64,000 nt of DNA from Styela clava (Eukaryota): the NCBI RefSeq assembly GCF_964204865.1, contig NC_135255.1, positions 11,532,001-11,596,000 of the forward strand, given 5' to 3'. The translations under genes and the position numbers were made by a program. Shown in pieces: positions 3,951 through 61,485 of the stretch (the first letter of the stretch is position 1; each line of letters opens with the position of its first letter). The notes under the pieces were generated by a model. That model saw only the letters and a list, made by a program, of their open reading frames with translations, made no database searches and had not been told where the DNA came from.

Positions 3951-6900
3951 CTCTATGTTTTGGATTACCATGTATTATTGATAATTATGAAGAACATCTC
4001 GCGCAAACAATATTAAACTGTCCAAATCGTGTTCAGGATTTTCAATTTTTAGTCATTCCCACAATCAACCGGGCCATCATTTATATAAATTCCTATTGCA
4101 AAAGCATCGTTCCGGTTGCATTTCTAACAAAACGTAACGTTATATTTAGATACCCGGTCTTGGCAATTGACTGCAGTGTCACTGGATTACCAAAACCAAG
4201 ACTGTGGTGGAAGCGAAACGACGAACAAGTTATACCTGGAGACAGAATACAAATATACAGACCTTCACAAGGAGTACTCCGACTCAAGCTCCAAAATGTG
4301 AGTGTAAAAAAAACCTATGAAATTTTTTCTGTTATATATATCCGAACATTTCCTCACCCACAGTGTTTCCCTGTACTGTAAAATACTACTTGCTATAGAT
4401 GTAGAGCTTATTATGAATGCTTTCATACCGCTTCAGTAAGAGCGTACACAACTTAACAATTTATATACTACTGGACATGAAATGAACTTATAAATGAATT
4501 TATTTATCCATATTGTTGTTGTAAAAAATCGACATTCTTCGCAAATAATCGACGATCTCAAATATTCGGTATACCTAGAGATGGAAAGAATGTTATTGCT
4601 TTTACTTTATTTTTTCAATTTTTCCTGAGTCCTATGTGAATTGCTACGACGATGGAGCTTGATTTTCAATTTTGCTTCGAGACTTTTGAAATACCAGATA
4701 GCTGCTTTCAGTATGAGCTATTAAGGTTACCGGTACTGTCTACTGTGGTTAGTCATTGAACTTTTGCGCCCATATATTTAACCATAGGTCTTTTGTTATT
4801 TGTGATTAGTACACTATTAGCAAGTCTTACAAATTAAAACCTTTGTCAATTGCCATTAAAATAAAACATCTTAGGGCGACTGATGATTCGATTAAGGTAA
4901 ACCTTTTCTGGAGCGATAAGACAATTTGACAGTAATCACCAGATCACAGATCAACTGAATAGTTAGTCAAAATGCCAGTAATATAATTGTTTTTGACAAG
5001 CATAACGAAATAGACAAAATACATCTTAATTAGCCATTTTTCAGATGAATATAGAAGTGCATATTTGTCCGGTTTATGTGTTAAATCACGTACCCGAGTA
5101 ATTAAATTAAAACTACCGTCGACCGTAAAATTGTTTGTCAAATTTAACATACATACTGTACTAGACATATTCGGGTCGAATTCTAAACTATACCTGTTAC
5201 TCATGTTTCATGCTTGCTTTAGTGAGAATTCTTCAAAGTCAATTCTCGACATTCTTCTTGTCACAATGAGTCGAGACGTTAGTCACGATTTTATCGAAAG
5301 TTTCAAAACAGAAGCGTTAATCGCCACCACACCTCACATTCTAATGCAAATTTAGTCTCAATGATGAGTTAATATAAAAAATATATATAAAATGCTGTAC
5401 GAAAGAGTCTATAAACAGAGTAAGACAAGTCTTTTTCAAACCCCGAGATGGTGGACATGGGATTTGCACTCAAGATTTTCCCTGCGATGGCATCATAGTT
5501 AAGACTAACCATTTAAACCAGTAAGCCACGCGCCAACGAATAATACTTATAGGCTGTCATTGACATGTGATGTGTGGCAGGAAGCACAGATTATCACCAT
5601 AGATTAGTTGTTCAAACGTTTATATTGGAGACGCTATTGTCGAGCATTACTTCCGACTATAGGGATTGGATTCACATGCGGGGATTCTATTGAACGACCG
5701 AGATTCGCACATATTTAAACATATTTAATTGAAGAAATTGTTTGCCTTAAAAGATTCTCTCTTGCCTTGCCTTAAAAAATTTCTGCGCTACTAACTGCTT
5801 TGAAGCATGTTATAGGTAACTTGATTCAAAAGTTCGGGTTTAGAATTCAGATTTGATTTATTTAGCCACAGGGGTCACTGCCCGATAATCAGCTTTGGTT
5901 TCCCGCGGCTTCAATTCCTCGAGAAAACTGTATGCTTACTTTTTTTACTCGCATTTTGCATACGACTAACTTTTATTGGTTGGAAAAAATAAACTTAACT
6001 TGACTTAAAATTGTTGGTCGCAGAATAAGCACCGACACATTAAGGTGGACTTACAGTTCGAATGCACAACCGTTGATTCAGGAAAATCCCATTCTAAATA
6101 GTTGGATTTCATATAATTTGTATAATATCTTTTAATTATATTGTATCAAATTAATTTAGTTTTATTGTTTTAGCGTTTTACCCATTGTTATGATATTTCG
6201 AAATTTCAATCGAGTCAGCCCCATTTTACCAAAGTTTTAATTCTTTTTCCCGCATCACTAATTTAACGATCATCACATACGATTCATTCGAAACCGAATT
6301 GTTCTAGAAAATTTTCTCACATACAAAATAACTGAAGAGTTAACGGCTTCTTGAACTTATTTATTTTCAGGTTCAAGTCGCAGACGCAGGGGAATGGGCA
6401 TGTCATGCTCGTAACGCCGCAGGATATACGCGTCGCGCTGTAAGAATCTTAGTCCGTCTGCCGGAACCAAACAGCATGGCTTTTTACCGGAAACCAGTGG
6501 ACCAGTATGTCAAAAGAGGACATACAGCTATTTTTAACTGCGAGGTATTTTAATTTTTTATTACAATTTATTTTAAGAAGATAATATGTTATTTGTCGTG
6601 TTCTTCACACTTCTATTCAAATGGAAAATTGATTTACATGAGGTGGTATTCATGATCAAATAAACAATCGTGCTAGATTGCATTTGATAAAGCTATAATA
6701 GACGATTCTTTTGCGGTCAGTATTCATTTTAATACAACTGACAAAAATACGGCACACAATGAGAATGTATGATTTTAAAACGTACTATACCAATTCTGTG
6801 ACGTCGGATCTCGTGGCGAATAGAAAAGGAAAGTATGACGTCATAGACACTTCGATATGACGTCATAATACCATTTTCAACGGATTAACGGAGGAAAATA

Positions 6901-9900
6901 TATTTCAATCTCACTCTCCTCCATACTCTTGTGCACTAAGCTTGATTGCCAATTTTATCAAACAATCCATGTATGTAGGCATGTATAGGTAAACGGGCTA
7001 ACATAGCAGATTCTGGAAAAAAACTGTTGAACGCATGTAAAAAAATCATACCAATGAAAGATACGATTTTTCATTTACAACCGAGAGATAGAGTAAAGCT
7101 TATAAAACTTATAATAAGCTTATCAAGCAAAAGGCACGGCTTTTTCTTTAGGATTTCAATGGAATGCTGTCATGGAAATATGTGACCATTGCACTTTGCA
7201 GATTTATATATCTGTTTCGTGACGGCATCTATGGCCACCACCACGCCCACCAGCATTCAGTTACTTGACTAATGCCATTGAGTCTATTGCTGGCATACAC
7301 CGTATTTCACGGACCATAAGACGTATCCAAAAAAAATATTTTTTCAAAAGTCGATCGTGTGCCTTAAAAGTCGGTGGGTCTAAAAAGTTTGGATTAGGTA
7401 GTGCTTTGTGTTTTATTGGTTCTCCCTTAGTATGTGTACCAGGTTAGGGTTAGACCATAATTTTATTCCAATTTTCCCTATTTAAGTGCTATTACGAGTC
7501 GGGGAATGTTTATGTTAGCCAAGTGAATATATATACCTCCTGACGATCGGCTTGCCTCCCTTTACACAACAAATTCGTATCTTCAATTTGGTACACATAC
7601 TTCTGGATCGCCTTTCATTTGCTACTCTGAAAACCAGTAATTGTACCAGTTGCGTCTTATTGGCCACTGGAGCAATTCATTGGACAAAACAACAATCTTA
7701 GTAATTTGTTGACTGTGCGCCCTATATGCGCCTTACGGTCTGTAATATACTGTAGTGTAGACAATAGACATCATCTCAAGATCGAACAAACACAAAAATA
7801 CTTTCATTTTGTACAAGATGATATTTATTTTCAAGTAATTACAAACCACATGTATAAATATATGATCCATTTGTAAGGCTTCTAAGTTTTATGCCTGGTT
7901 CATCTTGTTCATAGATAGCACCTTAAAGAGACAATCGACAATCTATTACATCTTTTCAGCAAAGATAGTTTATTTTGATACTATTTCGCACGCGAATACA
8001 AGGTTTTTCATGTTTTGTATGAAGTTTCTGAAAGACTATAATAACATAATTTGACAAGAGTGGACACGCTGACTTTGCTTGATTGAATTTTGCTCAAAAT
8101 GAAAGAGACGTATTCCAAGCTATCTCACGGTGTGGTAAATTAATCTCCTTCAAAATTGTGGAAATTTACCCCCTAACAATTACCGTAAAGTTTATTCCGT
8201 TATAAAAGAAGTAATCAAAACATTCACTATATCCCTATAAAAATTCTGATTGTTCACTAATATTTTTTGTATTACTTTATAAGTAGTAATGTCCCAGCTG
8301 TTGTTGCTTTGTGGAAAAAAATATCGGAAAATATTTGCATTATTCAAACTCTTGTGGATTCTGTAACTTGCTATATTGAGACTTACACTAATGCTACGTT
8401 TCCCAACTGGGAATAGACTCTTTCCAGGGGCGAATTTTGTTTTAAATTTGCTGTAGTGTTAGTAATATTCTTTAGTTGTTTATTATTACCATAATACTTA
8501 TTTGTGCTATCGATTGGGTTTCTACAAGACCAACTACTTTTCCGTTTTCTATGCTTTTGCGTCGGTGGATCCGTATGCATATAATGCAAGGATGCTGTAG
8601 CAAGAGTGAAGATAACTATCCTGAGTAATTCAATAAATAGATAGGCTAGTCAGAGCCAAATTAAAGCCAAAATCACCTGTCAGCAACAATCCAGGTTTTT
8701 TTAAATGTGGAAGACAGTCATGCAGTACCTGCGAACATTCTGATGAAACGAAAGTAGCGACAAACAAACAAAAAACTATTCAACTAAAAATTACTCAAAA
8801 AATAACGTGCAATACGGAAAACGTCGTCTACTTGATAAGCTGTAAAAAATGTGGCATGCAGTACATTGGCGAAACAGGGAGGCATCTGAAATATCGTATT
8901 TCAGAACACATTAGAAGTATAAAATCAAAAAACAGAGACCTGGTCGTCGGTGCTCACTTCAACCAACCTGGACATTCACTGAAAGACTTTAATGTAATTG
9001 GAATTGAAAAACTGTTTCAAGACCATATTTACCGAAAAACTAAAGAATCATATTTCATTCACCTACTTGGAACGCATGAACCATTGGGAATGAACATTAA
9101 AGAAGTTTAGGGCATTTAGGAACATTTTATACACCGTATATTTTCGTAATTTTACCGAATTTTGTATTATTATATTTTTTTTTTATTTACTTTTTATTTT
9201 CCCCCATGTATTTTTTTAGTGCAGGTAATTAAAATACAATCACCAATTTATTTATCTTTCAAATCCCATTGTTGTGATTTGTTATGTTGCCATGACACCC
9301 ATTTTATGAATGTGCATGAAACTTTCATGTGTTTTTTAATTTTAAATATTTATACTTAGTGTTGTTAATTAAATTTTCAATCACCACCTACATGAGTTCG
9401 TTAACTCACATTGTTATGATATTGTTTTGTTGCCATGGCACCCATTGTATAAATATGCTTGCAATTGCTGTTCTTGCTTTAGTTGAAATATGTATGTCTG
9501 AGGAAGTTTGACCGTGGTCAGACGAAACGTTACAGAAATATATTTGTGTTAGTGTGCAGCAAGACTATTTATTGAAATACTTATTTGTGCACGCATTAAA
9601 AACTACTTAAACTGTATAAAAACCACAGGCCGAGTTGCGCATAACACTAGCGAAGGAGGAATAAAGGCTGCTACTGTTAAATTTAGATAGAATTTAGGAC
9701 ACGCCTTTCCAGCCCCGCCCCGTTTTGTAGTAGAAAACAATTTATTTGACAAACTAAACTTTCGTTTAGATACTGGAACATCATTCTATGAATCTTAATA
9801 TTACCTGGTTGAAGGACGGCGTTCGTGTTGATATCGGTGAAAAACGAAAAGTTGTAAAACGTTATCGTCTTGTTATTCGTCAAGTTCGAGATGAAGATGC

Positions 9901-21900: not shown

Positions 21901-24900
21901 ATGTTTCACAACCTGATTTAGATATTGCTTTTCATTTTTTGGGTGACAAAAGAGCCGCTGTTGAATATTTTTTTACAATACAATACAATACTAAATTTTC
22001 TCTTAATCGTAAGCTTTTATTTTCCAGCATTTGCTACAATGGACAATGGAAATGTTCTTTCAATAAAGATTTATGTGAATTTCCCTCCTCGCTCATTCGT
22101 ACACCAGTATCGCAGGTAAAAAAAATATTTTACGATCCATATTTATTCTTCAGTGTACATTATCAACTATAACTTCCATTATTTTCCTGCAGATTGTACC
22201 ATCGGGGTACTCTGTGTCATTTTGTTGTGAAGCTGCTGGGATACCAACCCCAACTGTTGAGTGGTTCAGAGATGGACGTTTAATACCTCCTCAAACTGAG
22301 TCCGAAGATGACCCAAAATCTAGCGGCCCTGTCATATACGGACACTCAAAGGCTTATTTGACGATGAAAAATATAAGCAAAATAGAGGAAGGGATTTATA
22401 CTTGCAAGGCTTCTAATTTATTAGGATCACAAATGTCGGATCCGGCTGTATTGAGAGTAGTAGGTAAGTGGAACTTATCAGTGGCCGTGATGGCAAGCAA
22501 ACTTCTGTAACAGTTCTTCAAAAGCAAAAACGCAAAACAAGCATATACCCTTTTTGGCGCTCCAGAAGTTTGTGTACCAATATGGTACTAGGTAACTAAT
22601 TTTGAACTCGTAAAAGAACTAAAATACGGTAAAAAGGAAAAAGTTATGCTCTAACCCTAACCTGGTACACACGATAGTACCCCTTTTTTGCATGAACTAT
22701 CGAAGATTAATTTTTTTATGAGACGTTCTCAAGTCCCCAGTTTGAACAAAATGTTGTAAAGCTGCCACTAATACATAAGATTTTTTTTTTTTTTTGCATT
22801 CAAAAATACTCATATATTTTACAGAACCATGGACTGCGACATGCAATCCAATACCCAGCAGAAGAACCCTGAATTTGCCAGATGGGTGCTATGTAGCCAG
22901 ATCCCGAGGTATTAAAATTATTTCTTCTTCTCGTGATATGATAGAAACGTTTTATTTAATTAAAGCCGATATTAGAATTCTTTTTACAATTCAGGCTAGG
23001 TCTTATTTTCGGGGAAACACGGTACTTCTTGTATTACCAAGCCTCCTCTTGTCTCATAATATGTAAGTAGGAAATGAGGAAATTAATTAATTCTCTGTTA
23101 TTAAAATTTTAGAAGACACACTCAACGTTGGGCAATGCATTGGTCTTCCCTGCTTTTACGATAATCCAGAATTAGAAGACAGCCACAGAAGATCATCAAG
23201 AAAATGCGGAAGAACAAGACAATGTTGTCGCCCCTCTGTGACGTCACCAGTAACAGTCAACTGTAGTCATATGTTGTATTCCGCTTCATTTGTCGTCACT
23301 ACAGTACAGAAGTGTGCCTGCTCGTCATGTGAAGACAGGGTTACCGTTGTAGAGGGGGCATTGAAAACTGCTATAACGGGTATATTCTTTTTTATGGCGT
23401 TTCATCTTCGCTTTGAGCTATGCTTTGGGAAAGCAGCGCTTTTTTCAATTTATTTTTAGAGTTTCAATGAATCCGATGTAATTTGACGTGGGAGATATAT
23501 TGTGTAAATTCTAGTACTCCCGTAGTATGTGTGCCAGGTTAGGGTTAGGCCATAATTTTATTCCGATTTTCCTTATACTAGTTCTATTACGAGTTTGGCG
23601 ATTGTCTGTGATAGCCAAGTGAATACACCCCCTGGTGATCAGTCCCGTTACACAACTTTATGTAAAGTAGGCGAACAAAATCAGTTACCTACATATTGGT
23701 ACACATACATTATGGGCGCCTAAAATTTTTCTTTTCCCGTTTCATTGCTATTTTAATCTGAACAGAAAAAGGATATTTTAAGCGTTTTGACTATTATGCT
23801 AACATAGGAAGATATATATACATAGATAAAAACGAAAACACGGTGAATGCAATAAAAGATGTGCTTCTGTAGCGAGTAATCCGTTATTGTGAATTCACTC
23901 CAAAATGACGCTTGCGAGCATAGGATATCGAATACATAGGATAAAGTTTAATAAATAACAAATAGAAGTTTTTATAACATTTCAACCTTCATCCCTTTAT
24001 TTTCAGGCGAACTACTTCGACACGTCAAAATCATGCACCAACTCAGAGTAGTAGGTTACACATCAAGTACTGGATCGTTTCGTATATCATTTGCCTCTTT
24101 GCCTGAAGATATTCGTTACGTAACTCTTACCTTTGATGACGTCATATTTAAAAGATTTCCTTCTACAGTCAAAAATTTACCCGTTATTTTTGGTGACGTC
24201 ACAATCCACACCGTCCAAGTGAATGGAAGATCGTACAGAAAACGGTTTGACGCTAGTTTGGGACTTAAATATATGTTCAGGTACGGGGAAATTATTAAAG
24301 ACATGAAACATTATTTTAGAGGCTAAGACCCCAAGAAGTGAATGTCTATTATTTTTTTCGAGTACAAGGAGGTTTGGTCCAGTCTAACCCTGACATGGGC
24401 AAAATAAGGCCCGCGGACTAAACCCGGCCCGTTGGCTAATTCAATTTTGCCCGCCTGATGCTGCCACAACCAAACTAAAACCAAATTTTGATGTTTTAGC
24501 TAAAAAAAAATAGCTCAAGGAATTAGTTGACATTGTGATTAAATTTAGTTTTGCCACGAGGCCTTGTTTTCCAGCTCGCATAAAACGATAAGTCTAGGCT
24601 AGCTTTATAAACCAGGCCACGGTATAACACAAGACATTCAATTGTTTTACTCACTTCAAAAAATTATTCATGGCGGTCATAAACGTAGGGAACCGCTAAG
24701 TTAGATAGTCTATCACTCTATCATAATAAAATCTTCCAATCGGCCTCAAAATATCCTGTTGATCTCTGCCGCGTAACATGTTCTTCATGCACACATATTA
24801 CATATATATACTTAAAATTGTACCCACTCCCAGATACACTGTATGGATCATTTGTGCGATCCATCGTGTCATGTTCTTTTTAATGGAAAATGAAACCAAC

Positions 24901-34100: not shown

Positions 34101-37100
34101 CTATTATGATTTTTCATCAGTGTACCACAAAGGCAAGGGTCGACAATATTCTGAATAAAATATTCCAAGAATGTTCAAGAGTTTTGCTGCACACTAACAC
34201 AGAAGTATTCTGTATCGTTTCAACCGTTATATAGTTCAAGGGTTATAGTTAAATAATCATTATTAAAATATAAATATTGAACTTGATAATGCAGAATATT
34301 TATCCCATCATTGTGTCAATGTTTAATATAGTTGGGACGAACATTGTTTCATTAATTTTCTATTTTCACAGCATCAATCTGAAATGCTGAAAACGACAAA
34401 CTTTTCCAAATTATCCCCAAAACCAAGAATTTCCTATACCGATATAACCAATTTCTAATGGATTCGAAATCTTTAAACCACACTTTTTTTATATGACTAT
34501 TATTTCACGCCTTTATTACTAATCAACATACTTGATGTAGCTCTAATGATTGCACTTGATTTTTCAAAACATTTAGTCTTTGTGATGTCACCACAACGCA
34601 AGTACTAGGTACATGTACTGCTTCACCCAATATATCGTTGACTAATCGATGGTTACGTTGGAATCTAGCAGCTGCAACATGCTTCACAGAGTAGCACATA
34701 TCTGAATCCTCTGCAATGAAAAGTAGTATTTGCTAGGTTACTAATGGGTGGATAGCTCTTGTTAATAAGGAAAAAAACAGCGCTGCGCTTAGGAGGTTCT
34801 GGGGACATTGGGGACAGTTATAGATCTTATGACACACGCTGTTTGTTTGCACAAACTAGCTAATAGGATGTTGGTATGAGCTTTGTAATGCAAAGGAATT
34901 GTAATTACTCGTACATTAAATTAAAAACTCGTTACGCATTCAAAATTGGCACTTCTCCGCAAGCGGCACAATTTTTCCTTGTGGGCCGCATATGATCTAT
35001 GGGCCACAGGTTGCACACTCTTAGCGTACACCAAAACTTTGATCTAAATTTAATTTTCCATAGAGTTTATCGCTGACTTAGTTTGAATTTTTTTCCCCAA
35101 TCAAACCATAATTCCATAAATAAACCTTCATCACTGATCCAAGTAATTGTATTTGACATAAAAATAATTCTTACTTACCAACAGTTTCATCAATAGGTTC
35201 AATGCTCATATAAGCATCGTCTTTGTCTGCTAATCCTTCAGTAGCAGCCATGATTGCTTCAGCTGAAAATTTGAAAAATCAGACAAATATTAAATTTTTG
35301 AGAGGTGATGTGCATAAGATTTGTATTTATATAGAGAAGAGAAAGGCGGTGCATAAGATTTGTATTTATATAGAGAAGAGAAAGGCGATATGACACTGAC
35401 AACTTAATCAAACGGTGAAAAATGACCTATCGTCGGGAAATCAGTCTATGTTGGGTAGGGTAATAGGGTGATTATGGCACCAGATTTGGCTCTTAATGCT
35501 CCATCCAGACATGAGTGATATTTAATAACAGCAATTGCGGTTATTGAAACTATGAAAAATGGAAAACGGGCCATGTTTTATATCTCATAGGACTTATATA
35601 GTTGGTCTGAACTAAAGTAGCATATCTAGTTACGACATTATAATAATTGAATGAAATACTTCACACAAACCTCTAGATTTAGCTTGTAGATATGTTTGAT
35701 ATTCTGGTGATAATTGATATGCCTTCAACAGTTCAACATGTTCCACCTGTAATTGAAACATTTATTTAAAATGCATTATAGTTAGGTGGTATGGCTCATC
35801 GTGCTAAGCGTTAGGAATACGCTCGCCACCGCACCTCTGATTACTCTGCGTGGATTCGCAGGTTCGAATCCCATGCGGTGATGGCTATGTGCGAGAGGAT
35901 TGCTGGACTCCTCACCGCCGTAGGGTGGTTCACGTAACCGCATCAAGTCCATTCTTCTGAAAATAAATAAATAACTGATCCCATGACTAGTGAGGGAGGA
36001 ATAAAAAGTTCCAAAATAGGCAAAGGGAGGAATTTAAAGGAAAAAGGTTGGGAACTATTGAATTCTGAATACCATGAAACTGCATTTGAGCTACCAAAAA
36101 CTTCAGAGGTCAAAGGTTAGAGCTCAGAGTAAAAAAAATAAAGCGACAAAGTCCCTGTGGTTTCGAATCAGCTTTCTGGCCTTGCATTTCCAGTTTATAT
36201 AAAGAACCAACTTTTGCAATTTCATATTCATCCATATATTGTTGTCGCTCAGTTGCTGGTAATTCTCTCCACATTTGTCCAATTATTTTTCCAACCTCCC
36301 ACAATTTTAAATCTTGATTTTTATTCTGATTTGCTCTCACATCATCCCACACCTGAATTGTAAAAATGAGAAGTAAAATAGATTGAAATTCAATGTTAGT
36401 GTTCATATAAATAAAAATGAAATTTCTGTATGCTTTAAGAGTTATATGGAGCTTTGTCCCCAATGATTTGAGAGTTCACTCAAGAACTAAATGAGTAATA
36501 ATCTACTACCTTTCTGCTATATCTCATGTAAGGCATCAACGGCTTTTCAGGTGCTTTTGGTGGCTTCGGCAATGCACGCTAACAATAAAAAAATTAACAC
36601 AATTAATATAAATTTTGATACGAAGACCGATATAATAGTATTTCTCAAAACCATAAAAATGGATAAAACTTCCAATGAGTCACAAAAATATTACTGTAAA
36701 ATTAAGATTACTACAATACCTACGAAGCAATTTAAAATACACTAAATAAGTGTAAGTCCAGTTTTTTTGTAGTAAAACGATAGGTGTTCAACATATCACA
36801 GTAAACAACATACCCCAACAGATCCATGTCTCTTTCCCCCAGTTTGTGACAGATTTCCAATCAATAGTCTAGTATTAGCAGGATGGCTGTAGTAGTTTTG
36901 AAAATATTGATTCGAACCAGCAGTCTGAAAAGTACACAAATATTGTTATAAAATATAAATCTACTTAACAGATACATTTTATACTCAGTTGAAAATGCGG
37001 TAGGCTTTGATTGCAACGAAATGGTGTCTTTCATACTTGAAAACAAAATATATTGCCAATATCCAAAACTATATTTCAAGCATTGTATGAAATTTTCTGA

Positions 37101-39085: not shown

Positions 39086-40063
39086 TCAATTTACAACTCT
39101 TTTGAATGGTCTAGCACCCGGAGTTCGCACTCTTGCGATTGGTTTCTGAGATTCTTTAGCAGAATTAGTCCGACTTCTAGGATTTGTATTTCCGATTCTT
39201 TTACCACTAGGTGGATGTGGAGATATTTTTCTTATAGGACTTTTAATACTTGGTAAATCTGCACGAGTAATTCGAGTATCTTTCTCCAACTGACGAATTT
39301 CTTGCTCAGAAAAACCAACATTTTTATCTGGAATTGGGCTTTCTGGTATAGAAGTAAAATAATCAAAATCATCTTTAAGTTTCACTTCTCCGTTACCTAT
39401 AGCAGTCGAAAATTTATGCAGCGATTCGGTTATTTCTGTGGTAAGTTTATCATAAAAAGCCGGTTTATTATGAGTGTCTTCATCAATATTTTTAGGTTTT
39501 TCATTTTGAGATTCCTCCTCATCGTCACTCAATTCTTCTTCGTCGTCACTCTCATCTTCATCCGAGCTGATGGAGCAATCAACCGATTTTTCATTGAGAA
39601 ATTTTAAATTTGGCAGTTTGTCACAGATGCTTCCAACATGATGAGATGCTTCTATACATCTATTTCCAGTCAAATTTAATATTATCAAACTATTTGGCAA
39701 TTGTTCAGTAACTAAATTTTCGATACAATTATCGCTTAAATCAAGAAATCCCAAATTTGCCAAGTCTTTTACTCCTTTCACTTCATTGATCCGATTCTCA
39801 GCCAGAGTTAAAAATCGCAAATTAATTAAAATGGAAAAGTTAACCATTTCCTGTATGTGATTACATTGTAAATAAAGATTGGTAATGCAAGGCAGAAAGT
39901 CCAGCAAAGGAACAGAAGTCAATCTTTCTCTATCTAATCTAACATGAGTAAGATCAGACAGCTTTTCAACTAATGCATCGACATCAGTGTCGTTTTCTAT
40001 TTTCAGAGTTTTCAAATTTCTTCGCACTACCAGGCCAACAATATCCAACGTATGATTTGACAT
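39086..40063 (-). CDS. LRRC46: Leucine-rich repeat protein 46, intronless, 325 aa
   Basis: VRLDRE..LYLQCNHI..LRFLTLAENRI..LDLSDNCIE..LPNSLIILNLTGN pattern followed by an acidic tract, as in LRRC46. Confidence 0.85.
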   Translation of the reverse strand: MSNHTLDIVGLVVRRNLKTLKIENDTDVDALVEKLSDLTHVRLDRERLTSVPLLDFLPCITNLYLQCNHIQEMVNFSILINLRFLTLAENRINEVKGVKDLANLGFLDLSDNCIENLVTEQLPNSLIILNLTGNRCIEASHHVGSICDKLPNLKFLNEKSVDCSISSDEDESDDEEELSDDEEESQNEKPKNIDEDTHNKPAFYDKLTTEITESLHKFSTAIGNGEVKLKDDFDYFTSIPESPIPDKNVGFSEQEIRQLEKDTRITRADLPSIKSPIRKISPHPPSGKRIGNTNPRSRTNSAKESQKPIARVRTPGARPFKRVVN

Positions 40064-40680
40064 TGTAGATTTTGATGTTCAATTATCATCCATTATAATG
40101 TCAAAGATATAAATCCTGTTCACAAAACATTTCAATCTTGAAAAATCTCATCTTCGTCAAATGTGTAGTATTTTAACTGAATCATTCTATTTTGTAATCT
40201 TAAACAATAGACACAAAAAATTAGACAACATAGCGCAAAATATACTGGTATATCATATCTGGTTCAATATTTTGATAGCTTTTGTTTGATCAAAAGTTTG
40301 GATTTATATTTCCAAAATACATTAAATCCCATTTATATGATACTAGAAACAACATTCGAATATGCTATTAAGTATACCGGTACATATGGCATATTTGTCT
40401 ATAAGAGAAACAAGACAAAAATGAGCCTAACTTACGAGGATAAATTTCACACTTGATACAACTAAAATCAAACAAAACTTGGTCATACATTGAAAAGAAT
40501 TGTAATACCAAAAATTGGAGGAACATTTTTGAAAAGGTTTGTTGTTCGTTTTAAATCCTTTTAATTACAATATAATCTTAATATAACAATATGAAATTCC
40601 TCAGTTCAGCATTAATAAGTTGGACCAGAGTTATACAAATATTTTCAGTCAACAAAAAAAATATATTTCAAGAGATTAGG

Positions 40681-40971
40681 CTAGCTTGATGGTGTCAAAA
40701 GTGAGCTAATTGTGTTTTCAACTTCTTTAGACGATTGGTTTGCCAGCGATGCACTATATTCCACTCCAAATGGATGACGAGCATAGACTTTCGGTTCTAT
40801 GTTGCTACATTCTCGGATAAGGATTGGGAAACCAGGATTTTCTTTCTTGATTGCGACATATCTATTCTCTACAAAATCTCGAACTCCTTGACTGGATGAT
40901 GACTTCTGACATAAATGTATTCGAAGTTCACGAATGTGCTTTGACAAATTAACAAGTTGCTTTGCCGCCAT
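40681..40971 (-). CDS. NDUFA2: NADH:ubiquinone oxidoreductase subunit A2 (CI-B8), intronless, 96 aa
   Basis: RELRIHLCQKSSSSQGVRDFVE..Y..IKKENPGFPILIRECS..EPKVYAR..FG.E. Confidence 0.97.
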   Translation of the reverse strand: MAAKQLVNLSKHIRELRIHLCQKSSSSQGVRDFVENRYVAIKKENPGFPILIRECSNIEPKVYARHPFGVEYSASLANQSSKEVENTISSLLTPSS

Positions 40972-41384
40972 CTTTTATTCTTCTTTGGATCCCCTTGAAC
41001 CTGCTCGTATATATTACTGTATTAGTATTGCAGAAGCAATAATAAAAAATAAATATAAAAAAATGACAGTTTTTTATATGATATTTCCACACTATTCACA
41101 CCGAACAAGGCCCTGCATAAGCAGCTATTGCAGTATTGATAGGTCTGTAGGTGGGAAGCTGCTATTTTCAGAAAACAAAACGAACTAGCCTCTTAGCTAG
41201 TCTATGTATGAGTAGGACTCTGCCGTGAACCACGCTATGGCATTGAGGAGCCCCGCAATCTCCTTGCACATAATAAAATGAATTTACGGCTGCAGGGTGC
41301 TTTATCAAAAAACATTCGTCTGTCTGTCTGGAGTTGTGCACTCGCGCATCTTTACTCGCGCAGCGTTACTGGACTGGCGTTACC

Positions 41385-41420
41385 CAAAGTGACTATAACT
41401 AACTATTTATAGTCACTTTG
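41385..41420. mobile_element. 36-bp palindromic transposon footprint with perfect 8-bp TSD
   Basis: GCGTTACC [CAAAGTGACTATAA CTAACTAT TTATAGTCACTTTG] GCGTTACC. Confidence 0.8.
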
Positions 41421-42861
41421 GCGTTACCGTGCCGGTAGTGCTCTGACTCAAATCAAACTCCAAATAAATACTATATAATATATCTGAATAAATATATAAA
41501 TCTGACAAAAATATCTGAATATTCGAGAAAACATTTTGCGATACAGCTTTGTCTGAAAGAAAATATGCGAACGCTTTGCGCAAACTGATTCATGTGTGAA
41601 TGCAGTTTCTCGAGAACAGCATTTGCGAGAACAAATTTTCGCGTAAACGTATTTTTCAAAAATGTAATTTTGTGACAAAATATTGAAATCTCGGACAACC
41701 TACTTTTCCGAGACTGTAAATTTATGCAAACGAATTTTGCAGAATTGCAGTTCCGACATCGTGACACTGGACAGAAGTTTGTTCTCGCAAAGCTAGGTTC
41801 TCCACATCCTTTTTTTCGTGCATCATACAGTGAAAGAAGATCTCTGAATAAACTAGAAAAATAACCGAAAATAGAGATGAATTAACGATATATAGTATGA
41901 TCAAAATTTATCTAATAATTATCTTGCCTGCAGCAAACATCAATAACAAAACCAAGAAGCGTGTTGCAAATGTCGTGTTCAGAAATTTTACTTGAAACAA
42001 AATGCGATCAGAATTATTACATTCCAACTCTCTATATTCAATACGCCAGCTCATTAAATACCGTAGGAGATGAGATTTTAAAAAATTGGTAATTATAGAT
42101 ATTAAGAGAAAACGACACCTCTCCTGTTTCTACTAAAGTAGGATAGGACCTATCTCATTTGACTCTGAAATTTAATTTGAAAAAGTGGTGCGGGTGCGTG
42201 AGCATGACCATGTGCTTTAGCGGGAAGGTTTTGCCGATAAGAAATGATAAATGTTCGATATTCATTATGGAATTTATTATGTCTTATCTGTATGTAATGA
42301 TTTATATTATTATAAATAAAATTACATTTATTATAAAAAAATGGTATTGCAGCGTTACGGTACGGTATTGGTTATCTCCAAACAGTTAGGTACGGTACAG
42401 GTAGCATGTGTCGGCTGTCGCATTGTATTTCTGTACCGGTATTTTGGATATAAGATGCGATAGGTTAGGTACAACAGTACAATGCAAGGGTATATGACAT
42501 TTGAGTTGTGTTATAGAAAAAATCACGGTATCTTACTAGCATATTCATATATTTGAATATCATGATAATGGTACGGTACATTTTATAGTTTCAGCAGTTT
42601 TGTTCTGTATTTTCAAAGCATCCATTGGGTTTCACAATGCGATATAAACAGTAAGTCAGTAACACAGTAATAGCGTTTTATATTCACCCATTGTTTACAC
42701 TGTTATGACATTGAATTTGTGAAAATTCATTCAAAATAAATTTTTGAATTAAAAAACAATTGGAATATTTTTATGATCATATATATTTATATAGCTTCAA
42801 TACTTAAAATATATCGAAAATATAAAAAGTGAAACATTGCATACAGATATATGTTGTAGGT

Positions 42862-43305
42862 CGGGGGTCGGCAACCTTTTGTCGCTCGCGGGCCAAAATT
42901 AAAGGTTGCAAGTCATTGGTGGGCCGCACATATTTTTAGAAAGTTAATATCCGAACGGATAGCCGATTAATCACATTTTTCACACAGATCAAGAGTTAAA
43001 GTTTGAGCAGCGCACAAAGACTGATCATTTGAATATTTTCTGCGCCAATGAACCATTCGCACTCAGCATCAACTTTACTGCGTTTTGTTGCCATTTGTCT
43101 GATTATAATTAAATTGTAGGCTCATCAAACGAGTAATCGTGAATTATATATTTGTTAGGATATAATATAATTTAGTCTCAAAATAAATTATGTTAGGTAA
43201 AGAATATAATCGTCAAAACAGCTGTTTTGTTACTATAAATATAATTTAGTGAAGCGTCGCGGGCCGGATTATATTGCCTCGCGGGCCGTAGGTTGCCGAC
43301 CCCTG
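42862..43305. mobile_element. hAT-Charlie-type MITE
   Basis: TIRs CGGGGGTCGGCAACCT / AGGTTGCCGACCCCTG; TSD TTGTAGGT / TTGTAGGC (7/8, central TA); GCGGGCC subterminal motifs. Confidence 0.88.
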
Positions 43306-43723
43306 TTGTAGGCTATCTCATTCAATTCATTGATAGTAATGCTATGGCCATTTACTTTTTTCATATGTATTCAGTACTTCGGTCCTCGAGTGTAATGATT
43401 GAGAGAAATATTGTTTCTGTGGAAAAATAGGTTGGCATCATGTTATTAGTTATAATAAAACCCAACGAAAACATTTAAAACCTCAATAACTACTCGATCT
43501 TCGTTTAATAAGCTATAAATTAATCCACTGGTTTCCGTGTAGTTCACAAGTCAGGTACCGGTACTTGAATGTGAATCATGGGAAAATCTTTTACTACTGG
43601 AAAGTACATTAACCATCATACTGCCATAAGATGTGGCAAGGTTCAGTAACATGATTGCATGCTCATAAACTCTTTCACTCAGAAATAAGCTGAGTGATAA
43701 CAATTGTCAGTTTGTGTTGTTGC

Positions 43724-43902
43724 TAGTAGTGGGATTCAGCCGGTTTGCACCTGTTCTATAGAACCGTCTCACAGAATTTTATGAGTTCAGCGAACCGGTT
43801 AGCATTACTGAAAAAAAACATGACTTTTTGTAACAGAACCGGCTGATAATATGACATTTGTGTGATGGAACCGGCTGACAAAAAATTTGAATTCCACTAC
43901 TG
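43724..43902. mobile_element. hAT-family MITE with perfect 8-bp TSD
   Basis: TIRs TAGTAGTGGGATTCA / TGAATTCCACTACTG; TSD GTTGTTGC at 43716-43723 and 43903-43910; repeated GAACCGG. Confidence 0.88.
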
Positions 43903-44175
43903 GTTGTTGCCTAATCTTGAATCTAGGTATTAATCTAATTTTGTGGATTTTTTAATTAATGCATTGCTATTGCTAATTAATTCGACTTTCATCTTGACAC
44001 CTGGCAGCATGATCACCACCAATCACAGAATCAACTGATCAATTTTTCAGTGAACAATTGAATAAATACCGAAAATTCCCGATTGTCTGCTTGTGTCTAT
44101 AATACTTTTTAATTCTGTCTCTATAAAAACAGTTTATAGTAAATTGATAGATGAATTTTCATAAGGACTGCCACC

Positions 44176-45333
44176 ATGAACAGTTTCTTCAAATTAGGGA
44201 GAAGGCTAACTAACTGTTCTCGTGAAATTAGTGTATTTTCAACCTCACAACCAAATGGAACAAATCATGCTTGGCATAAAGCCGTCTCAGAAGCTGAGAA
44301 AATTGTTGGATTTCCGACGTCTTTTCTAAGTTTAAGAGCTTTATTGAGTGACGAGTTTGGTGGACTTGCATTACACCTAAGAAAACTGATAAGCACCAAA
44401 CATCCTTTACTAAATACAGCAAGAGGCATCATGTTCGATTCTAAAAATTATTTACAAACAAGAGGATTGGTTGTGTTACTTATTTCAAAAGCAGCTGGAA
44501 TCACAGATATAGAAAGTGATTTTACCTCAACAGAGATTTACGAAAAACAACGTGCTTTGGCTGAAGTTACTGAACTAATTCATGTTGCATTCCTCGTCCA
44601 TAGAGGCATTGTGGATGTGAATCAGATTGTTGGGAATGTAAGTAAAACAGATATTGACTTTGGTAACAAACTTGCAGTATTAGGAGGTGATTTCTTACTT
44701 GCTAATGCATGTACTGGCTTAGCAAAACTGCAAAACACTCAAGTTGTAGATCTCATGTCAACATCGATTAAAGATATATCAAGTTCACTTGTAATTCTAC
44801 CAGAAAGTGATTCAGTTTGTGATGTCGAAATGCTTTCGGGACTTCCTATGAACGAAAATAGCTGGAAAGAGACAGTTCACCTTTCAGCTGGAAGTTTATT
44901 ATCGAATGCCTGTCGCTCAGCGATGTTGCTTGCATCGTCAGATGTTAAACTTCTCGAATCTGCGGAAAAGTTTGCGCATCATCTTGTACTCGCTCAACAA
45001 GCTCGACACGATTCTTTGAGATTTGATACATTAGAAGCCTTGGAACAAAAACCTAATTTTTGTTGCCTTTGTTCACTGCCTGTAGTATTACTAGCAGAAC
45101 AAAATGGTGGACTCGAATGGATAAAAAAATTTACTATTGATGAAGGTTTAAAGAATGTTAAAATAGATGTTGAAAAATTATTCCACACTGTAAAAAATGA
45201 TCCAAATGCTTTGCAACAATCACATAAATTGTGCGCAAATCATGTTGATAAGGCTTTAAATTATTTGCATGTATTTCCCCAAAGCGAGTCTAAGGATGCT
45301 TTAGTCAATATACTATTTTCTGTTAAGGAATAG
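44176..45333 (+). CDS. PDSS2: Polyprenyl (decaprenyl) diphosphate synthase subunit 2, intronless, 385 aa
   Basis: W..AVSEAEKIVGFPTSFLSLR.LLSDE, HPLL.TARG, RGLVVLLISKAAG, GNKLAVLGGDFLLANAC; HRGIV in place of DDxxD marks the non-catalytic subunit. GCCACCATG start. Confidence 0.96.
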   Translation: MNSFFKLGRRLTNCSREISVFSTSQPNGTNHAWHKAVSEAEKIVGFPTSFLSLRALLSDEFGGLALHLRKLISTKHPLLNTARGIMFDSKNYLQTRGLVVLLISKAAGITDIESDFTSTEIYEKQRALAEVTELIHVAFLVHRGIVDVNQIVGNVSKTDIDFGNKLAVLGGDFLLANACTGLAKLQNTQVVDLMSTSIKDISSSLVILPESDSVCDVEMLSGLPMNENSWKETVHLSAGSLLSNACRSAMLLASSDVKLLESAEKFAHHLVLAQQARHDSLRFDTLEALEQKPNFCCLCSLPVVLLAEQNGGLEWIKKFTIDEGLKNVKIDVEKLFHTVKNDPNALQQSHKLCANHVDKALNYLHVFPQSESKDALVNILFSVKE

Positions 45334-45363
45334 AATAAAACTGTATAGAATATAAGCATTGGT
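45334..45363 (+). promoter_or_regulatory. 30-bp PDSS2-COQ3 spacer: poly(A) signal followed by candidate trans-splice acceptor
   Basis: TAG-AATAAA(45334-45339)-ACTGTA-TAG(AG 45347-48)-AATATA-AG(45355-56)-CATTGGT-ATG; too short to hold a promoter. Confidence 0.55.
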
Positions 45364-46284
45364 ATGAAGCGATTGTTTGAATTATGTCATCGTTATTCCT
45401 TTCTTATACGGAAATCACACCAGACGATTGTGATAAGAAGCGATAATATTTTCACGACAATATGGCAAAATAATTCTGATTATCACCAAAACGAAAGTTC
45501 CACAAATGACACAAACACCCATGACCATGAAGAAACAAAAAAGTTTTCGGATTTATCTACCAATTGGTGGGATATAAACGGTCCAATGAGAGCACTGCAT
45601 TCAATGAATAAAGTACGAGTACCTTTCATAAGAGATTGTTTGATCTATGAAGGATATGGAAATGGAGAAATATATACAGACAAACCTTTGAAAGGTATTG
45701 ATATACTTGATGTTGGATGTGGCGGTGGTATTCTTACTGAGCCTTTAGCAAGATTAGGAGCCGACGTTGTAGGAATAGATGCATCAGAAGAACTGATTGA
45801 AATTGCGAAAAAACATAGGCTTCCAGAACTAGAAAACTTGCAATATCTCAATGCATTGGTGGAGGATATAGCTTTAGTGGGATCTTTAAAATTTGATGCT
45901 GTTGTGGCGTCAGAAGTTATCGAACATGTTTCAAATCCACATTCATTCATACAAACTTGCTCGAGTGTACTCAAACCAAAAGGGTCCATGGTGATCAGTA
46001 CTATAAATAAAACTTTACAATCATATCTTCTTGCCGTCAACTTCGCTGAGCGAGTTTTGCAAGTTGTACCCCGAGGTGCTCATGACTGGAATAAATTCAT
46101 AGCGCCAGAAGAAGTTATCGAATATTTAGATCATTGTGATTGCTCTTTTAGAAAAATTCATGGTATGCTATATAACCCGTTTTGTGATGATTGGTCGTTT
46201 GTTAGTAGTACCAATATGAATTATATTATTCATGCTGTTAAAAGACAAGATATTGACAATGACCAAGATAATGATATAGATTGA
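45364..46284 (+). CDS. COQ3: Ubiquinone biosynthesis O-methyltransferase, intronless, 306 aa
   Basis: WWD.NGP.RALHSMN.VRVPFIRD, ILDVGCGGGILTEPLARLGA, FDAVVASEVIEHV, STINKT, G.HDWNKFI.PEE. Confidence 0.97.
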   Translation: MKRLFELCHRYSFLIRKSHQTIVIRSDNIFTTIWQNNSDYHQNESSTNDTNTHDHEETKKFSDLSTNWWDINGPMRALHSMNKVRVPFIRDCLIYEGYGNGEIYTDKPLKGIDILDVGCGGGILTEPLARLGADVVGIDASEELIEIAKKHRLPELENLQYLNALVEDIALVGSLKFDAVVASEVIEHVSNPHSFIQTCSSVLKPKGSMVISTINKTLQSYLLAVNFAERVLQVVPRGAHDWNKFIAPEEVIEYLDHCDCSFRKIHGMLYNPFCDDWSFVSSTNMNYIIHAVKRQDIDNDQDNDID

Positions 46285-47656
46285 GTAAAATAAATTTCTT
46301 GGTCTTACAATAATGATTAATAATTCTGGTTTTTCGTTGTTCATTTTCTTTTATATCAAATGATTTGATATACTTTTGGTAAAAAATGGAAATGAATCGT
46401 ACACTATTTCATCACAGTGGAACCAAATGAGAGCTTGTCACATTTCAAGATTTTGGGAAATCACATTTTCGTAAATTATAGATCTATGCAGCCAAACCCA
46501 AAAAGGATGTGAAACATTCACTAAAACTAAAACAGGTAGAGCTTTAATACCCAGACCAAAAACATGGACCATGGTCCATAATGACAGAATCCCAAAAAGG
46601 CAATTTGTAAAAAATGTGATATAAGCTACTTTGGTTTTACAGTGGTGAATTTTTCTAATGTCTAACTTAATAAGGCCTAATTTTACTTCAAAGTTCAAAA
46701 TGGTATATTTCTGTGTACTACCTTCTATTAATAACAAGCTATGTAATGTTCTGAAATAGAGAATTCAGAGTTGATATACAAGCATGATTGTATGTAACAT
46801 ATCTGTTATTAAAAAGTAGAATCATAAAATTTTATTTTCGCATTCACAAATACTCAATATTCTTTGGCTTAATCTGCATCTTGAACAAAATGTCATGGCA
46901 TCCAATTTCTATTGTTTTTTACAGATAATTATCACCACCTTATTAATAGTTTATATACTATTGTGAATATATGCTTCTATAGTAGGAAGAATTTTTATCA
47001 TTTCAAAGAAGATCAACCTCATACATATTCAGCCAGAATTCAAAGGATTGTATCTTGATAATTCAGTTGTATCGAAGTAGACTCTTATCAGCCAAGAAAA
47101 AAACGTATGACTTTTTTGACTGATCCAATTTTGGCAGAAACAAAATCAGAAATTTTATCTATTAACTCTACACTCCTACATAGATGCTGATAGAAAAGGC
47201 CGATAGAAATCATATTTTAGTAAATGACTATAATCATGGGTTGAAATACAGTCATTCTGGGACAATTTTAAGACCCCGATGGATGCCATAATATAAGCGT
47301 CCGTTCAGTCGAGGGCAATCAATAAACTGATTTAGTCACTTAGACTCATTTTTTTCAAAAACCATCTCAACTCAATTTAAAGAATGATTCAATAGGGTGG
47401 TTTGACCACACAGATGAAGTCCTACTCAGTATCTCAACTTGAGTGGTAGCAAAATGATATCTATTCCAGTTAATTAAGATAGGTAAAATGTTACCCTAAG
47501 AAGCATATGTTATCCTTTCATAAGATATTTATCCAACCAATATGAAATGATTTTTCTCGGTAAAGATTGAGAAATCATGTTTGTAAAGTAGACTGTGTTT
47601 TTATTTCAGTACTTGAGTGTCAAATCCTGATTGCGTTTACTCAGTGTTATTGAAAA

Positions 47657-48547
47657 ATGTTGCGATCTTGGATAGGACTCTTAGGTAGGCCTAAGGTGAT
47701 CACATCTCAACTGTTGAAAAAGTCAAGATACTTATCAACGGCAGCAAATGATGAACTTGTTGTCCAACAACTTGATGGTGATGACGAAGGAATTGTTGTT
47801 CTCGGTTTAAATCGACCTAAAGCAAAGAATTCATTCAGCAAAAGTTTGAGTCAAAAACTGACTCAAGCGATCGAGGACTTACAGTACGAGGAAAAATTGA
47901 GAGTGCTTATCATTAGAAGCATGATCCCTGGCATATTCTGCGCTGGAGCTGATTTAAAAGAGAGGGCGACAATGCCACAAAGTGAAGTTGGTCCATTTGT
48001 ATCTCGTCTTCGAAGATTATTATTCGACATGCAGAACTTTGCAACACCAACCATTGCTGCAATAGATGGCGCTGCTCTCGGAGGTGGTTTAGAAATGAGC
48101 TTAGGATTCGACATGCGTATTGCTTCTAATAATGCTTCATTGGGTCTTGTGGAGACCAAACTTGCTATCATTCCAGGAGCTGGTGGAACGCAAAATCTCA
48201 CACGACTTATCGGAGCGAGTATGGCAAAGGAAATGATTTTTACAGGAAGAGTCGTAAAGGGAGAAGAAGCAAAAACCCTTGGTATTGTGAATCATGTTGT
48301 CAAGCAAAATGAAAACGGTGATGCTGCGTACTTGAAATCCCTTGATTTAGCTCGTGAAATTCTTCCTCAAGGACCAGTAGCATTGCGTATGGCAAAACGA
48401 GCAATAAATTGTGGCTCGGAAATAGATATTTCTAATGCACTTGCCTTTGAGCAAGCTTGTTATGCACAAGTGATCCCAACCAAAGACAGAATTGAAGGGC
48501 TCACAGCGTTTAGAGAAAAAAGGAAGCCAAAATATACAGGAAGTTAA
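47657..48547 (+). CDS. AUH: Methylglutaconyl-CoA hydratase (AU-binding crotonase family), intronless, 296 aa
   Basis: GIVVLGLNRPKAKNS, IRS..PGIFCAGADLKERA, PTIAAIDG.ALGGGLE, LVETKLAIIPGAGGTQ, NENGDAAY, EQACYAQVIPTKDRIEGL.AF.EKRKP.Y; upstream acceptor TTTATTTCAG (AG 47608-09). Confidence 0.93.
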   Translation: MLRSWIGLLGRPKVITSQLLKKSRYLSTAANDELVVQQLDGDDEGIVVLGLNRPKAKNSFSKSLSQKLTQAIEDLQYEEKLRVLIIRSMIPGIFCAGADLKERATMPQSEVGPFVSRLRRLLFDMQNFATPTIAAIDGAALGGGLEMSLGFDMRIASNNASLGLVETKLAIIPGAGGTQNLTRLIGASMAKEMIFTGRVVKGEEAKTLGIVNHVVKQNENGDAAYLKSLDLAREILPQGPVALRMAKRAINCGSEIDISNALAFEQACYAQVIPTKDRIEGLTAFREKRKPKYTGS

Positions 48548-60471: not shown

Positions 60472-60847
60472 TAAAACGCTTGTTGATTCAGGTTAATAGC
60501 TTAAAAAGTTAATGAAACACCAAAACATTTCAAAATAAATATTTTTCAACCTTATTTTATTTTAAAATTGGTCCTCACCAAACTAAGCATTGATTTATGG
60601 TTTACTTCCTAAGTGCCCTTAATCTTAATTTTAATTACATTTATTTAACCATCATTTTCGTAGATGCAATGATAACTTTTTTAAATCACATCTGAAATGA
60701 GCCTCACTGATATTTGTGGTTCTAATTTTTCCATCATTACTTCTACGGCTAAATGCAAATTAAATGTTTAGGCATTTTTACGTCATACTTGATTTGAGAT
60801 TTCAAATTTATTTATCAAATTTATTTCTTGCCATTGTTGTAAACTGC

Positions 60848-60889
60848 TTGTCTGAAGAAGTCTGACTCTGGTCGGACGAAACGGTACAA
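60848..60889 (+). ncRNA. Minimal hammerhead ribozyme motif (PLE-associated), copy 2
   Basis: TTGT-CTGAAGA-A-GTCTGACT-CT-GGTCGGAC-GAAAC-GGT-ACAA, followed by the same TTTGTGTTAGTGTGCAGC tail as copy 1. Confidence 0.72.
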
Positions 60890-61045
60890 AAATACATTTG
60901 TGTTAGTGTGCAGCTGGACTCTTTAATAGGATAGAATAGTCATGTTTATTCCAGCTGCAGTATCTTTGCAGCCCTATACGCATACGGATCCACTAGCATA
61001 AAGGCATAGAGAAAAGATAGGAAGTTAGTCTCGCGCAACCCAACT
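60848..61045 (+). mobile_element. PLE terminal-repeat (pLTR) remnant
   Basis: Homologous to 9495-9575 and, continuing, to the reverse complement of 8640-8511 (GCATACGGATCCAC...GCATAGA...ACCCAA). Confidence 0.75.
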
Positions 61046-61485
61046 CACTTCTAAACGGAAATATATTACGCCACGCATATCTCATTATGACACTGGGACA
61101 CATTATTCCGGTTACCAGTATAGTCTGGATAATTTCCCTCTGTGTATATATTTGGTTTTCTAATAAATGCTTGTGATAAATTTCATATGATTTGGTGGAA
61201 AGTAATACATATGGTGGAAACAGATTAAAATGTGAACTAAAAGGAACCACAATTGAAAAACGGGATATCATATTCTCAGCACAAAGATTCAACGATATTA
61301 AGGCAACACACACATTCAATAGCCAAGCTACGAGGACCATAGTCCCGGGTGCCGAGCGGCTTCGATTCAGGCATAAATACGCGTTCTGCGAACCAATGGG
61401 ACAGGTTGTTGTGAGTAATTAGTCGCCAAAGCGTTGTTGAAAATCTGTTGATTAAGTACGAATTTAATCCTCACAGTTTTCGTCA

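What the first reader, a model, noticed from the sequence alone, without database searches (positions are those of the whole stretch)
9495..9534. Hammerhead ribozyme motif on the sense strand of a host intron, with covariation against a second copy 51 kb away
Seen: copy 1 stem II GTTTGACC/GGTCAGAC versus copy 2 (60848-60889) GTCTGACT/GGTCGGAC. Every stem substitution keeps pairing (U-G to C-G, U-A to U-G, C-G to U-G), and the CUGANGA/GAAAC core is retained. Known: PLEs carry minimal hammerheads with short palindromic stem III that cleave as dimers. Copy 1 lies on the transcribed strand about 235 nt upstream of the acceptor at 9770, so it could affect the host pre-mRNA.
Basis: partly seen in the sequence, partly recalled or inferred. 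Interest (0 to 1): 0.7.

Follow-up and report, generated by a model that had tools for sequence, protein, structure and literature searches.

The report
Penelope retrotransposon stump with minimal hammerhead
The hammerhead motif is real but ordinary: it is one of about a thousand copies carried by Penelope-type jumping genes in this genome, here in a young broken insertion inside an intron, where it likely cannot cut the host RNA, and the only less familiar feature is a pair of folded RNA modules next to it that likely mark where the element starts copying itself.

Summary
The motif is real: a minimal type I hammerhead (cut site 9531/9532) in the pseudo-LTR of a young, 5'-truncated, inverted Penelope-like insertion (8493-9590, 15-bp target duplication, 99% identical to intact RT/GIY-YIG elements flanked by the same ribozyme). 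The genome holds 968 such motifs (control 1). The claimed covariation is overstated: the three stem changes are one-sided differences between two families, and copy 2 has U16.1 changed to G. True two-sided changes appear only in distant families. An effect on the host pre-mRNA is unlikely: there is no helix III, no same-strand partner in the gene as far as read, the active dimer is disfavoured, and the intron is spliced in 4 of 4 RNA-type runs (carrier status unknown). Copies do not end at the cut. They end about 50 or about 170 nt downstream, each about 27 nt before one of two AUCC/GGAU stems, the first inside a conserved three-way junction. That tail (about 120 nt) is longer than the published 30-40 bp. 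The scan has noted such hammerheads (71 findings) and twin start hairpins before, in other genomes.

The parts
6545..9769 (+). Host intron (3225 nt, GT..AG) of a secreted-type Ig/TSP1/VWD-domain gene
   Evidence: joint 6542>9768 in 4 of 4 RNA-type contig runs; ends; Pfam domains of exons
8493..8507 (+). Left copy of 15-bp target-site duplication; its last 6 nt also match the element RNA at the outer end
   Evidence: sequence
8502..8640 (-). Inverted arm: element 5' UTR from about +34 to +172 downstream of the ribozyme cut (the tail); holds the first AUCC/GGAU stem, no hammerhead
   Evidence: 99% to L032; models R1/R2 match 8545-8664 and 8546-8635
8639..9110 (+). 5'-truncated ORF end: Cx4CxxC linker plus GIY-YIG endonuclease with CCHH residues, 157 aa open frame
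   Evidence: Pfam GIY-YIG E 7e-7; 99-100% identical to intact copies
9111..9494 (+). Element 3' UTR / pLTR, with two 75%-identical 110-nt direct repeats (9216-9321, 9356-9464)
9495..9534 (+). Minimal type I hammerhead, family A; predicted cut GUU|A at 9531/9532; palindromic ACGU in place of helix III; extra A between A9 and G10.1
   Evidence: sequence, numbering, identical in 99% copies
9532..9581 (+). Start of next unit's 5' UTR up to the inner element end (about +45 to +50)
9576..9590 (+). Right copy of target-site duplication; first 6 nt match the element at 5 of 6
60529..61047 (+). Separate fragment of family B (3' UTR, hammerhead, tail ending at the outer end, about +159); no TSD found
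60848..60889 (+). Copy 2 hammerhead, family B, with U16.1 to G at 60884 (predicted dead) and N7 G to A
60893..61013 (+). Complete predicted three-way junction of the family B 5' UTR
   Evidence: model R1 113.7 bits; a close family B copy was in the training set
34174..34221 (-). Third, decayed remnant: GAAAC and downstream 40 nt only, no CUGANGA or stem II

Best explanation
The motif is the standard minimal hammerhead in the terminal repeat of a young Penelope-like retrotransposon copy that landed in a host intron; it likely serves the intact parent elements and is likely a silent passenger here. Shown: intact 3.4-kb units encode a 928-aa RT plus GIY-YIG protein between two identical hammerheads; the intron copy is an inverted 140-nt arm plus a 940-nt forward arm inside a 15-bp duplication; genomic copies end about +50 or about +170 nt past the cut site, not at it. 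Inferred: a staggered nick left two 3' overhangs that primed reverse transcription on uncut (or circular) element RNA at the two internal start sites, one cDNA stopping after 140 nt and the other after 940 nt, which put the ribozyme on the host's sense strand by accident. Inferred: cleavage needs a second ribozyme (palindromic ACGU helix III) and probably the element's protein, neither supplied by the host pre-mRNA. Inferred: each start site sits in a hairpin loop about 27 nt upstream of an AUCC/GGAU stem that the protein would bind.
For: Intact ORFs flanked by the motif in families A, B, C; Pfam GIY-YIG, and RVT_1 for family B, which is 61% identical to A. Copy 1 is 99.3% identical to L032 over 942 nt. 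968 motifs vs 1 control. Family-level pairing 89 of 91 cells, 4 pairs changed on both sides including the helix III palindrome ACGU to AGCU. Ends: 82 of 129 loci at +30-59 and 32 at +150-179; strict family sets. 30 of 30 loci chosen by a pattern that stops at the cut run on past it. Only two genuine cores in 84 kb, 51 kb and many genes apart. Active dimer -14.3 kcal/mol vs -18.8 for two monomers and -32.0 for a misfolded dimer. Papers: single minimal motif inactive, dimers weak (PMC4209133); ribozyme cuts only with the PLE protein, cleavage not needed for insertion, two internal RT starts define the tail (PMC11167929).
Against: No cleavage or RNA-end data here. The spliced RNA contigs come from other samples that may lack the insertion, and the runs are only guessed to be RNA. 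With about 1000 motifs in the genome, pairing in trans between transcripts is conceivable. The host gene may extend more than 10 kb upstream of the window, which was not read. All two-sided changes come from one distant lineage (family F), and only the score and percent-paired measures beat all shuffles (pairs with two-sided change: 39 of 500 shuffles as high). Folding z-scores of the three-way junction are weak in 4 of 7 (z -0.6 to -1.8). GUU is a usable triplet (PMC9217987), so the motif is not dead by sequence.
Confidence: 0.9

Rival explanations
1. The intronic copy cuts the host pre-mRNA (in trans with another element RNA, or helped by element protein) and so lowers or alters host mRNA.
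For: Sense orientation in a confirmed intron, 236 nt from the acceptor; core identical to the active family; many potential partners genome-wide; protein-assisted cleavage shown for an Anolis element (PMC11167929).
Against: No same-strand partner within the 84 kb read; predicted monomer fold pairs the CUGA core with the cut site region; active dimer disfavoured; the forward arm stops at +50 and lacks the downstream modules that the protein would bind; insertion is 99% identical to mobile copies, so no sign of host selection.
Confidence: 0.06
2. The hammerhead no longer cleaves in any copy of this clade and is kept as a structural or protein-binding part of the pLTR RNA.
For: U at position 17 in 745 of 783 matches to the downstream 29-mer, where GUC/AUC are reported best (PMC9217987); no pile-up of copy 5' ends at the cut; no 3' ends at the cut.
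Against: Catalytic core and helix III palindrome are kept across families whose proteins differ by 24-50%, with a two-sided palindrome change in family F, and families E and F carry C17; a tandem 588-nt ORF-less unit (family D) would suit dimer cleavage.
Confidence: 0.2
3. Chance match to a short motif.
For: The 40-mer folds no better than shuffles (z -0.06); no Rfam hit.
Against: 968 vs 1 control; fixed position behind the EN ORF in every family examined with a motif.
Confidence: 0.01

Closest known systems
Minimal type I hammerheads in pLTRs of metazoan Penelope-like elements (Cervera and de la Pena 2014, PMC4209133; read parts 1-2 of 4 of the text)
   Same: 7-8 bp helix II, short helix I, extra nucleotide between 9 and 10.1, G10.1-C11.1, palindromic 15.2-16.2, thousands of mostly single copies in several families, a few flanking full ORFs about 3 kb apart; a U3 variant also occurs (family F).
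   Different: Dominant clade here has U17 (the paper's figures were not visible, so whether that is usual is unknown); family F has U3 with G8 rather than the U3-A8 pair reported.
EN+ PLE insertion units with inverted 5'-truncated copy and one-sided tail (PMC8557442 and PMC3846280, passages seen)
   Same: Partial tandems, inverted arm, tail at one end only, TSD of about 10-15 bp, Cx2-5CxxC linker as in Neptune/Nematis.
   Different: Tail is about 115-120 nt here against 30-40 bp in those passages.
Poseidon of Anolis carolinensis, internal RT initiation (Frangieh et al. 2024, PMC11167929; read parts 1-2 of 4; supplementary figures not visible)
   Same: Two internal start sites downstream of the hammerhead that match genomic ends; both strands primed; AT-rich target; ends not at the ribozyme cut.
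   Different: Here both sites lie in the 5' UTR, about 120 nt apart, each in its own hairpin loop and each followed by an AUCC/GGAU stem; copy 1 shows 5-6 nt of target-RNA match at both ends, whereas that paper reports no homology.
Conserved intronic hammerheads of amniotes, RECK and C10orf118 (seen only as passages in PMC10761166 and PMC7229834)
   Same: Hammerhead on the sense strand of an intron.
   Different: Those are single-copy, conserved and active alone; this is a multi-copy, young transposon part without helix III.
Non-LTR retrozymes (PMC7229834 passages; bioRxiv 10.64898/2026.07.22.740005 part 1 of 5)
   Same: Type I hammerhead related to PLE pLTRs; family D tandem units resemble them.
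   Different: Copy 1 is single and attached to an ORF fragment, not a tandem array.

Membership tests
Minimal PLE hammerhead | CUGANGA and GAAA boxes, U16.1, H17 | tested here: met
   copy 1, (copy 2 fails: G at 16.1)
Minimal PLE hammerhead | 7-8 bp helix II with G10.1-C11.1 and an extra nucleotide after A9 | tested here: met
Minimal PLE hammerhead | No helix III hairpin; palindromic 15.2-16.2 | tested here: met
   ACGU; CG in 61 and GC in 6 of 67 rows, though the collecting pattern required CG or GC
Minimal PLE hammerhead | Located in the pLTR on both sides of a PLE ORF | tested here: met
   L031, L032, L134, L135, L147
Minimal PLE hammerhead | Self-cleavage as dimer or with protein | not testable with these tools
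   needs bench assay; genomic footprint test showed no pile-up
EN+ Penelope-like element | Single ORF with RT and C-terminal GIY-YIG with CCHH | tested here: met
   928-aa ORF, GIY-YIG E 2.8e-5; RVT_1 passes for family B (E 1.4e-9) but not for family A at 0.001; A and B 61% identical
EN+ Penelope-like element | Partial tandem or inverted insertion, one-sided tail, TSD | tested here: met
Neptune/Nematis clades | Cx2-5CxxC linker between RT and EN | tested here: met
   Cx4CxxC in families A, B, C; motif as given in PMC8557442
Neptune (as against Nematis) | Phylogenetic placement with reference RTs | not tested
   no reference sequences at hand
Host-domesticated intronic hammerhead (RECK type) | Single-copy, conserved at the orthologous position | tested here: not met
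   28 family A motifs among the loci fetched, many identical; orthologous position in other species not testable
Host-domesticated intronic hammerhead (RECK type) | Stable helix III allowing monomer activity | tested here: not met
   zero-nucleotide loop III
Non-LTR retrozyme | ORF-less tandem repeat with a ribozyme in each unit | tested here: not met
   copy 1 single, with ORF fragment

The most novel reading that the evidence does not exclude
The 200 nt between the hammerhead and the start codon are a conserved RNA launch pad: two parallel modules (hairpin whose loop holds an RT start, then an AUCC/GGAU stem about 27 nt on), about 116 nt apart, the first set in a three-way junction kept at 55-60% sequence identity. 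A dimer of the telomerase-like protein would bind one stem each and prime both DNA strands, which explains the inverted insertions with one long-tailed end. The junction could be a functional parallel of the TERT-binding three-way junction of telomerase RNA (that parallel is recalled and speculative, about 0.1).
Probability: 0.45. Interest if true: 0.55.

Novelty: new member of a known kind. Interest (0 to 1): 0.25.

Why it matters
As reported, it matters little: such motifs are common transposon parts and about a thousand lie in this genome. The useful by-product is a young family with intact 928-aa ORFs and a sharply mapped pair of start sites tied to conserved RNA stems, which makes the open question of how Penelope-like reverse transcriptases choose internal start sites directly testable in a second clade, with a tail three to four times longer than published.

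Tried and rejected
Rfam scans of the window and of six element loci: no hammerhead, nothing at gathering score. Footprint of in vivo cleavage: copies whose 5' boundary is exactly at the cut were 12 of 38, against 10 of 19 at -4 (five of them one duplicated block, so 6 independent), 9 of 30 examined of 71 at +5 and 5 of 30 examined of 48 at -7; scaled about 12 vs 6-10, 21 and 8: no pile-up; the test is coarse. Empty site: DNA runs showed no joint that skips the insertion among 15 joints shown (20 not shown); X1 contigs cross both junctions but may be the source sample; X15 had no depth on the unique flanks: inconclusive. No run was on record as RNA; contigs give no strand or ends. Metagenome scan for hammerhead plus AUCC/GGAU stem: 0 hits, uninformative for animals. 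An off-state pairing of CUG with downstream CAG is predicted for copy 1 but is not kept in families E and F2, so not pursued. One search used an out-of-frame query; its identities were discarded and redone. One search did not remove duplicate loci; redone. The alignment included a truncated copy and was redone. Twelve of 79 distinct motifs (eleven 52-nt rows, mostly family E, and one 51-nt row) were left out of alignment A1 because of length. Paper searches (listings only beyond the papers named) showed no description of a 120-nt tail or a three-way junction in PLEs; supplementary figures of PMC11167929 (its Fig. S2C fold) could not be seen and may bear on this.

Full report
Observation. Copy 1 has a complete minimal hammerhead core with the cut predicted between 9531 and 9532. 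It lies on the + strand of an intron 6545-9769 of an Ig/TSP1/VWD-domain gene; contigs of 4 of 4 RNA-type runs from 3 studies join the flanking exons with GT..AG ends. Rfam does not detect it and the 40-mer folds no better than shuffles, but a pattern for the core finds 968 matches in the genome against 1 for the reversed control.

Covariation. The three stem II differences between the two copies each change one side only and end or start in a G-U pair; they are fixed differences between families A and B. Copy 2 also has G at position 16.1, which breaks two of four helix III pairs in a dimer. Real two-sided changes appear across families. In 7 family representatives 89 of 91 cells pair and 4 pairs change on both sides (one in stem I, two in stem II, and the palindrome ACGU to AGCU); 0 of 500 shuffles reach the score, 39 of 500 reach the pair count, and all four changes come from the distant family F. 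In 67 of 79 distinct motifs 90.8% of cells pair against 26-40% for slid controls (12 rows left out for length). Family E, read directly, changes all three stem I pairs on both sides but has two U-U mismatches in stem II.

What it is part of. Upstream of copy 1 lies a 157-aa frame with a Cx4CxxC linker and a GIY-YIG domain. The stretch 8639-9580 is 99.3% identical to the end of intact elements, in which a 928-aa ORF lies between two identical hammerheads 3.4 kb apart. Families B and C (61% and 76% protein identity) are built the same way; family B passes Pfam RVT_1, family A does not at 0.001. The linker points to the Neptune/Nematis group (PMC8557442, passages); no tree was made. The insertion is an inverted arm (8502-8640, element positions about +34 to +172 from the cut) followed by a forward arm ending near +50, within a 15-bp duplication at 8493-8507 and 9576-9590. 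This layout is described for PLEs (PMC8557442, PMC3846280, passages). The ribozyme is on the host's sense strand because of that layout. Copy 2 belongs to a separate family B fragment (60529-61047), with many other genes on both strands between it and the host gene.

Effect on the host. A minimal hammerhead has no helix III of its own. PMC4209133 (parts 1-2 of 4 read) reports no activity for a single motif and low activity for dimers; PMC11167929 (parts 1-2 of 4 read) reports cleavage only with the element's protein, no need for it in insertion, and no RNA reads ending at the site. In the window plus 10 kb on each side only the two copies have a genuine core; the host gene may reach further upstream. 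The active dimer is predicted at -14.3 kcal/mol, two monomers at -18.8 and a misfolded dimer at -32.0. The spliced contigs show the intron is removed, but those animals may lack the insertion, and the test for an empty site was inconclusive. I put a host effect at about 0.06.

Does it cut in the element's own cycle? No copy ended at the cut: 30 of 30 loci picked by a pattern that stops there continue past it. Copy 5' boundaries were no more frequent at the cut than at three control positions. Position 17 is U in 745 of 783 matches. So templates were uncut at this site or rejoined. The conserved core and the compensated palindrome still argue for occasional cleavage under selection.

What lies next to it. 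Element ends are bimodal: of 129 distinct loci anchored just behind the cut, 82 end at +30-59, 32 at +150-179, 11 between, 2 earlier and 2 run on (only four references, so divergent families may look short). With strict assignment, inner/outer/other counts are 14/12/2 (A), 22/21/8 (B), 28/5/1 (C), 12/3/7 (D), medians +48 to +50 and +157 to +172 (part of these loci came from similarity searches that favour long matches). This matches the two internal RT starts of PMC11167929, but the tail is about 120 nt rather than 30-40. The region +6 to +125 folds into the same three-way junction in the 7 family sequences folded (F is 54-62% identical to the rest; z-scores -0.6 to -3.7, weak in four). A structure model trained without F finds 4 of the 9 F-type loci searched at E below 0.001 and 2 weakly; a sequence-only model finds none (E-values rough). 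Its invariant AUCC-UUG...CAUAC-GGAUCC stem has 767 genome matches against 0 controls. In 4 of 4 full 5' UTRs a second AUCC/GGAU stem follows 115-117 nt later (chance 0.03 per 225 nt), and each end lies about 25-31 nt upstream of one stem (family C outer end, n=5, is further), inside a hairpin loop. Caveats: the second GGAU overlaps the Met-Asp codons, and the families are related, so these are not independent cases. The idea of looking for a twin stem came from earlier scan notes and was then tested. My paper searches did not show this domain.

Verdict. A new member of a known kind. The scan holds 71 findings with these words in at least 28 genomes and one in this genome. Interest 0.25, most of it from the twin start modules rather than from the intronic ribozyme.

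Noticed in passing
L153 (G000:C1:6694200-6697100): Family D: 588-nt units with hammerhead and full 5' UTR but no ORF match, three on one strand and two on the other; looks like a non-autonomous, retrozyme-like derivative that supplies same-strand partners.
   Followed up: partly
L077, L092, L095, L098 and others on C1: Family E minimal hammerheads (C17, UGCC/GGCA stem I, two U-U mismatches in stem II); no link to the family A protein found within 1.5 kb and no match to the junction model.
   Followed up: partly
L136, L138, L141, L145, L146, L151: Family F has U at core position 3 with G8 and an AGCU palindrome; such copies are missed by CUGANGA patterns.
   Followed up: partly
window 39086-50894 and 57605-58642: Run of apparently intronless genes (LRR protein, CI-B8 domain, polyprenyl synthase, methyltransferase, enoyl-CoA hydratase, ribosomal L3, rhomboid); two frames are only 15 nt apart (45333/45349), as in operon-like clusters.
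   Followed up: no
window 7419-7499, 22640-22671, 23514-23594: Very abundant small repeat containing telomere-like GGTTAGGG units, with high depth in RNA-type contigs.
   Followed up: no
run X14 laid on window 8639-9530: A run labelled as another organism holds a 99% identical family A piece but not the unique flanks; low-level mixed DNA is as likely as sharing between species.
   Followed up: no
L031, L032, L037: Other inverted family A insertions also have one outer and one inner end and 11-14 bp duplications with 1-4 nt match to the element, read by eye; L031 carries a more-than-unit-length arm.
   Followed up: partly
window 61500-62900: Strongly purine-skewed repetitive stretch with several short direct repeats.
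   Followed up: no
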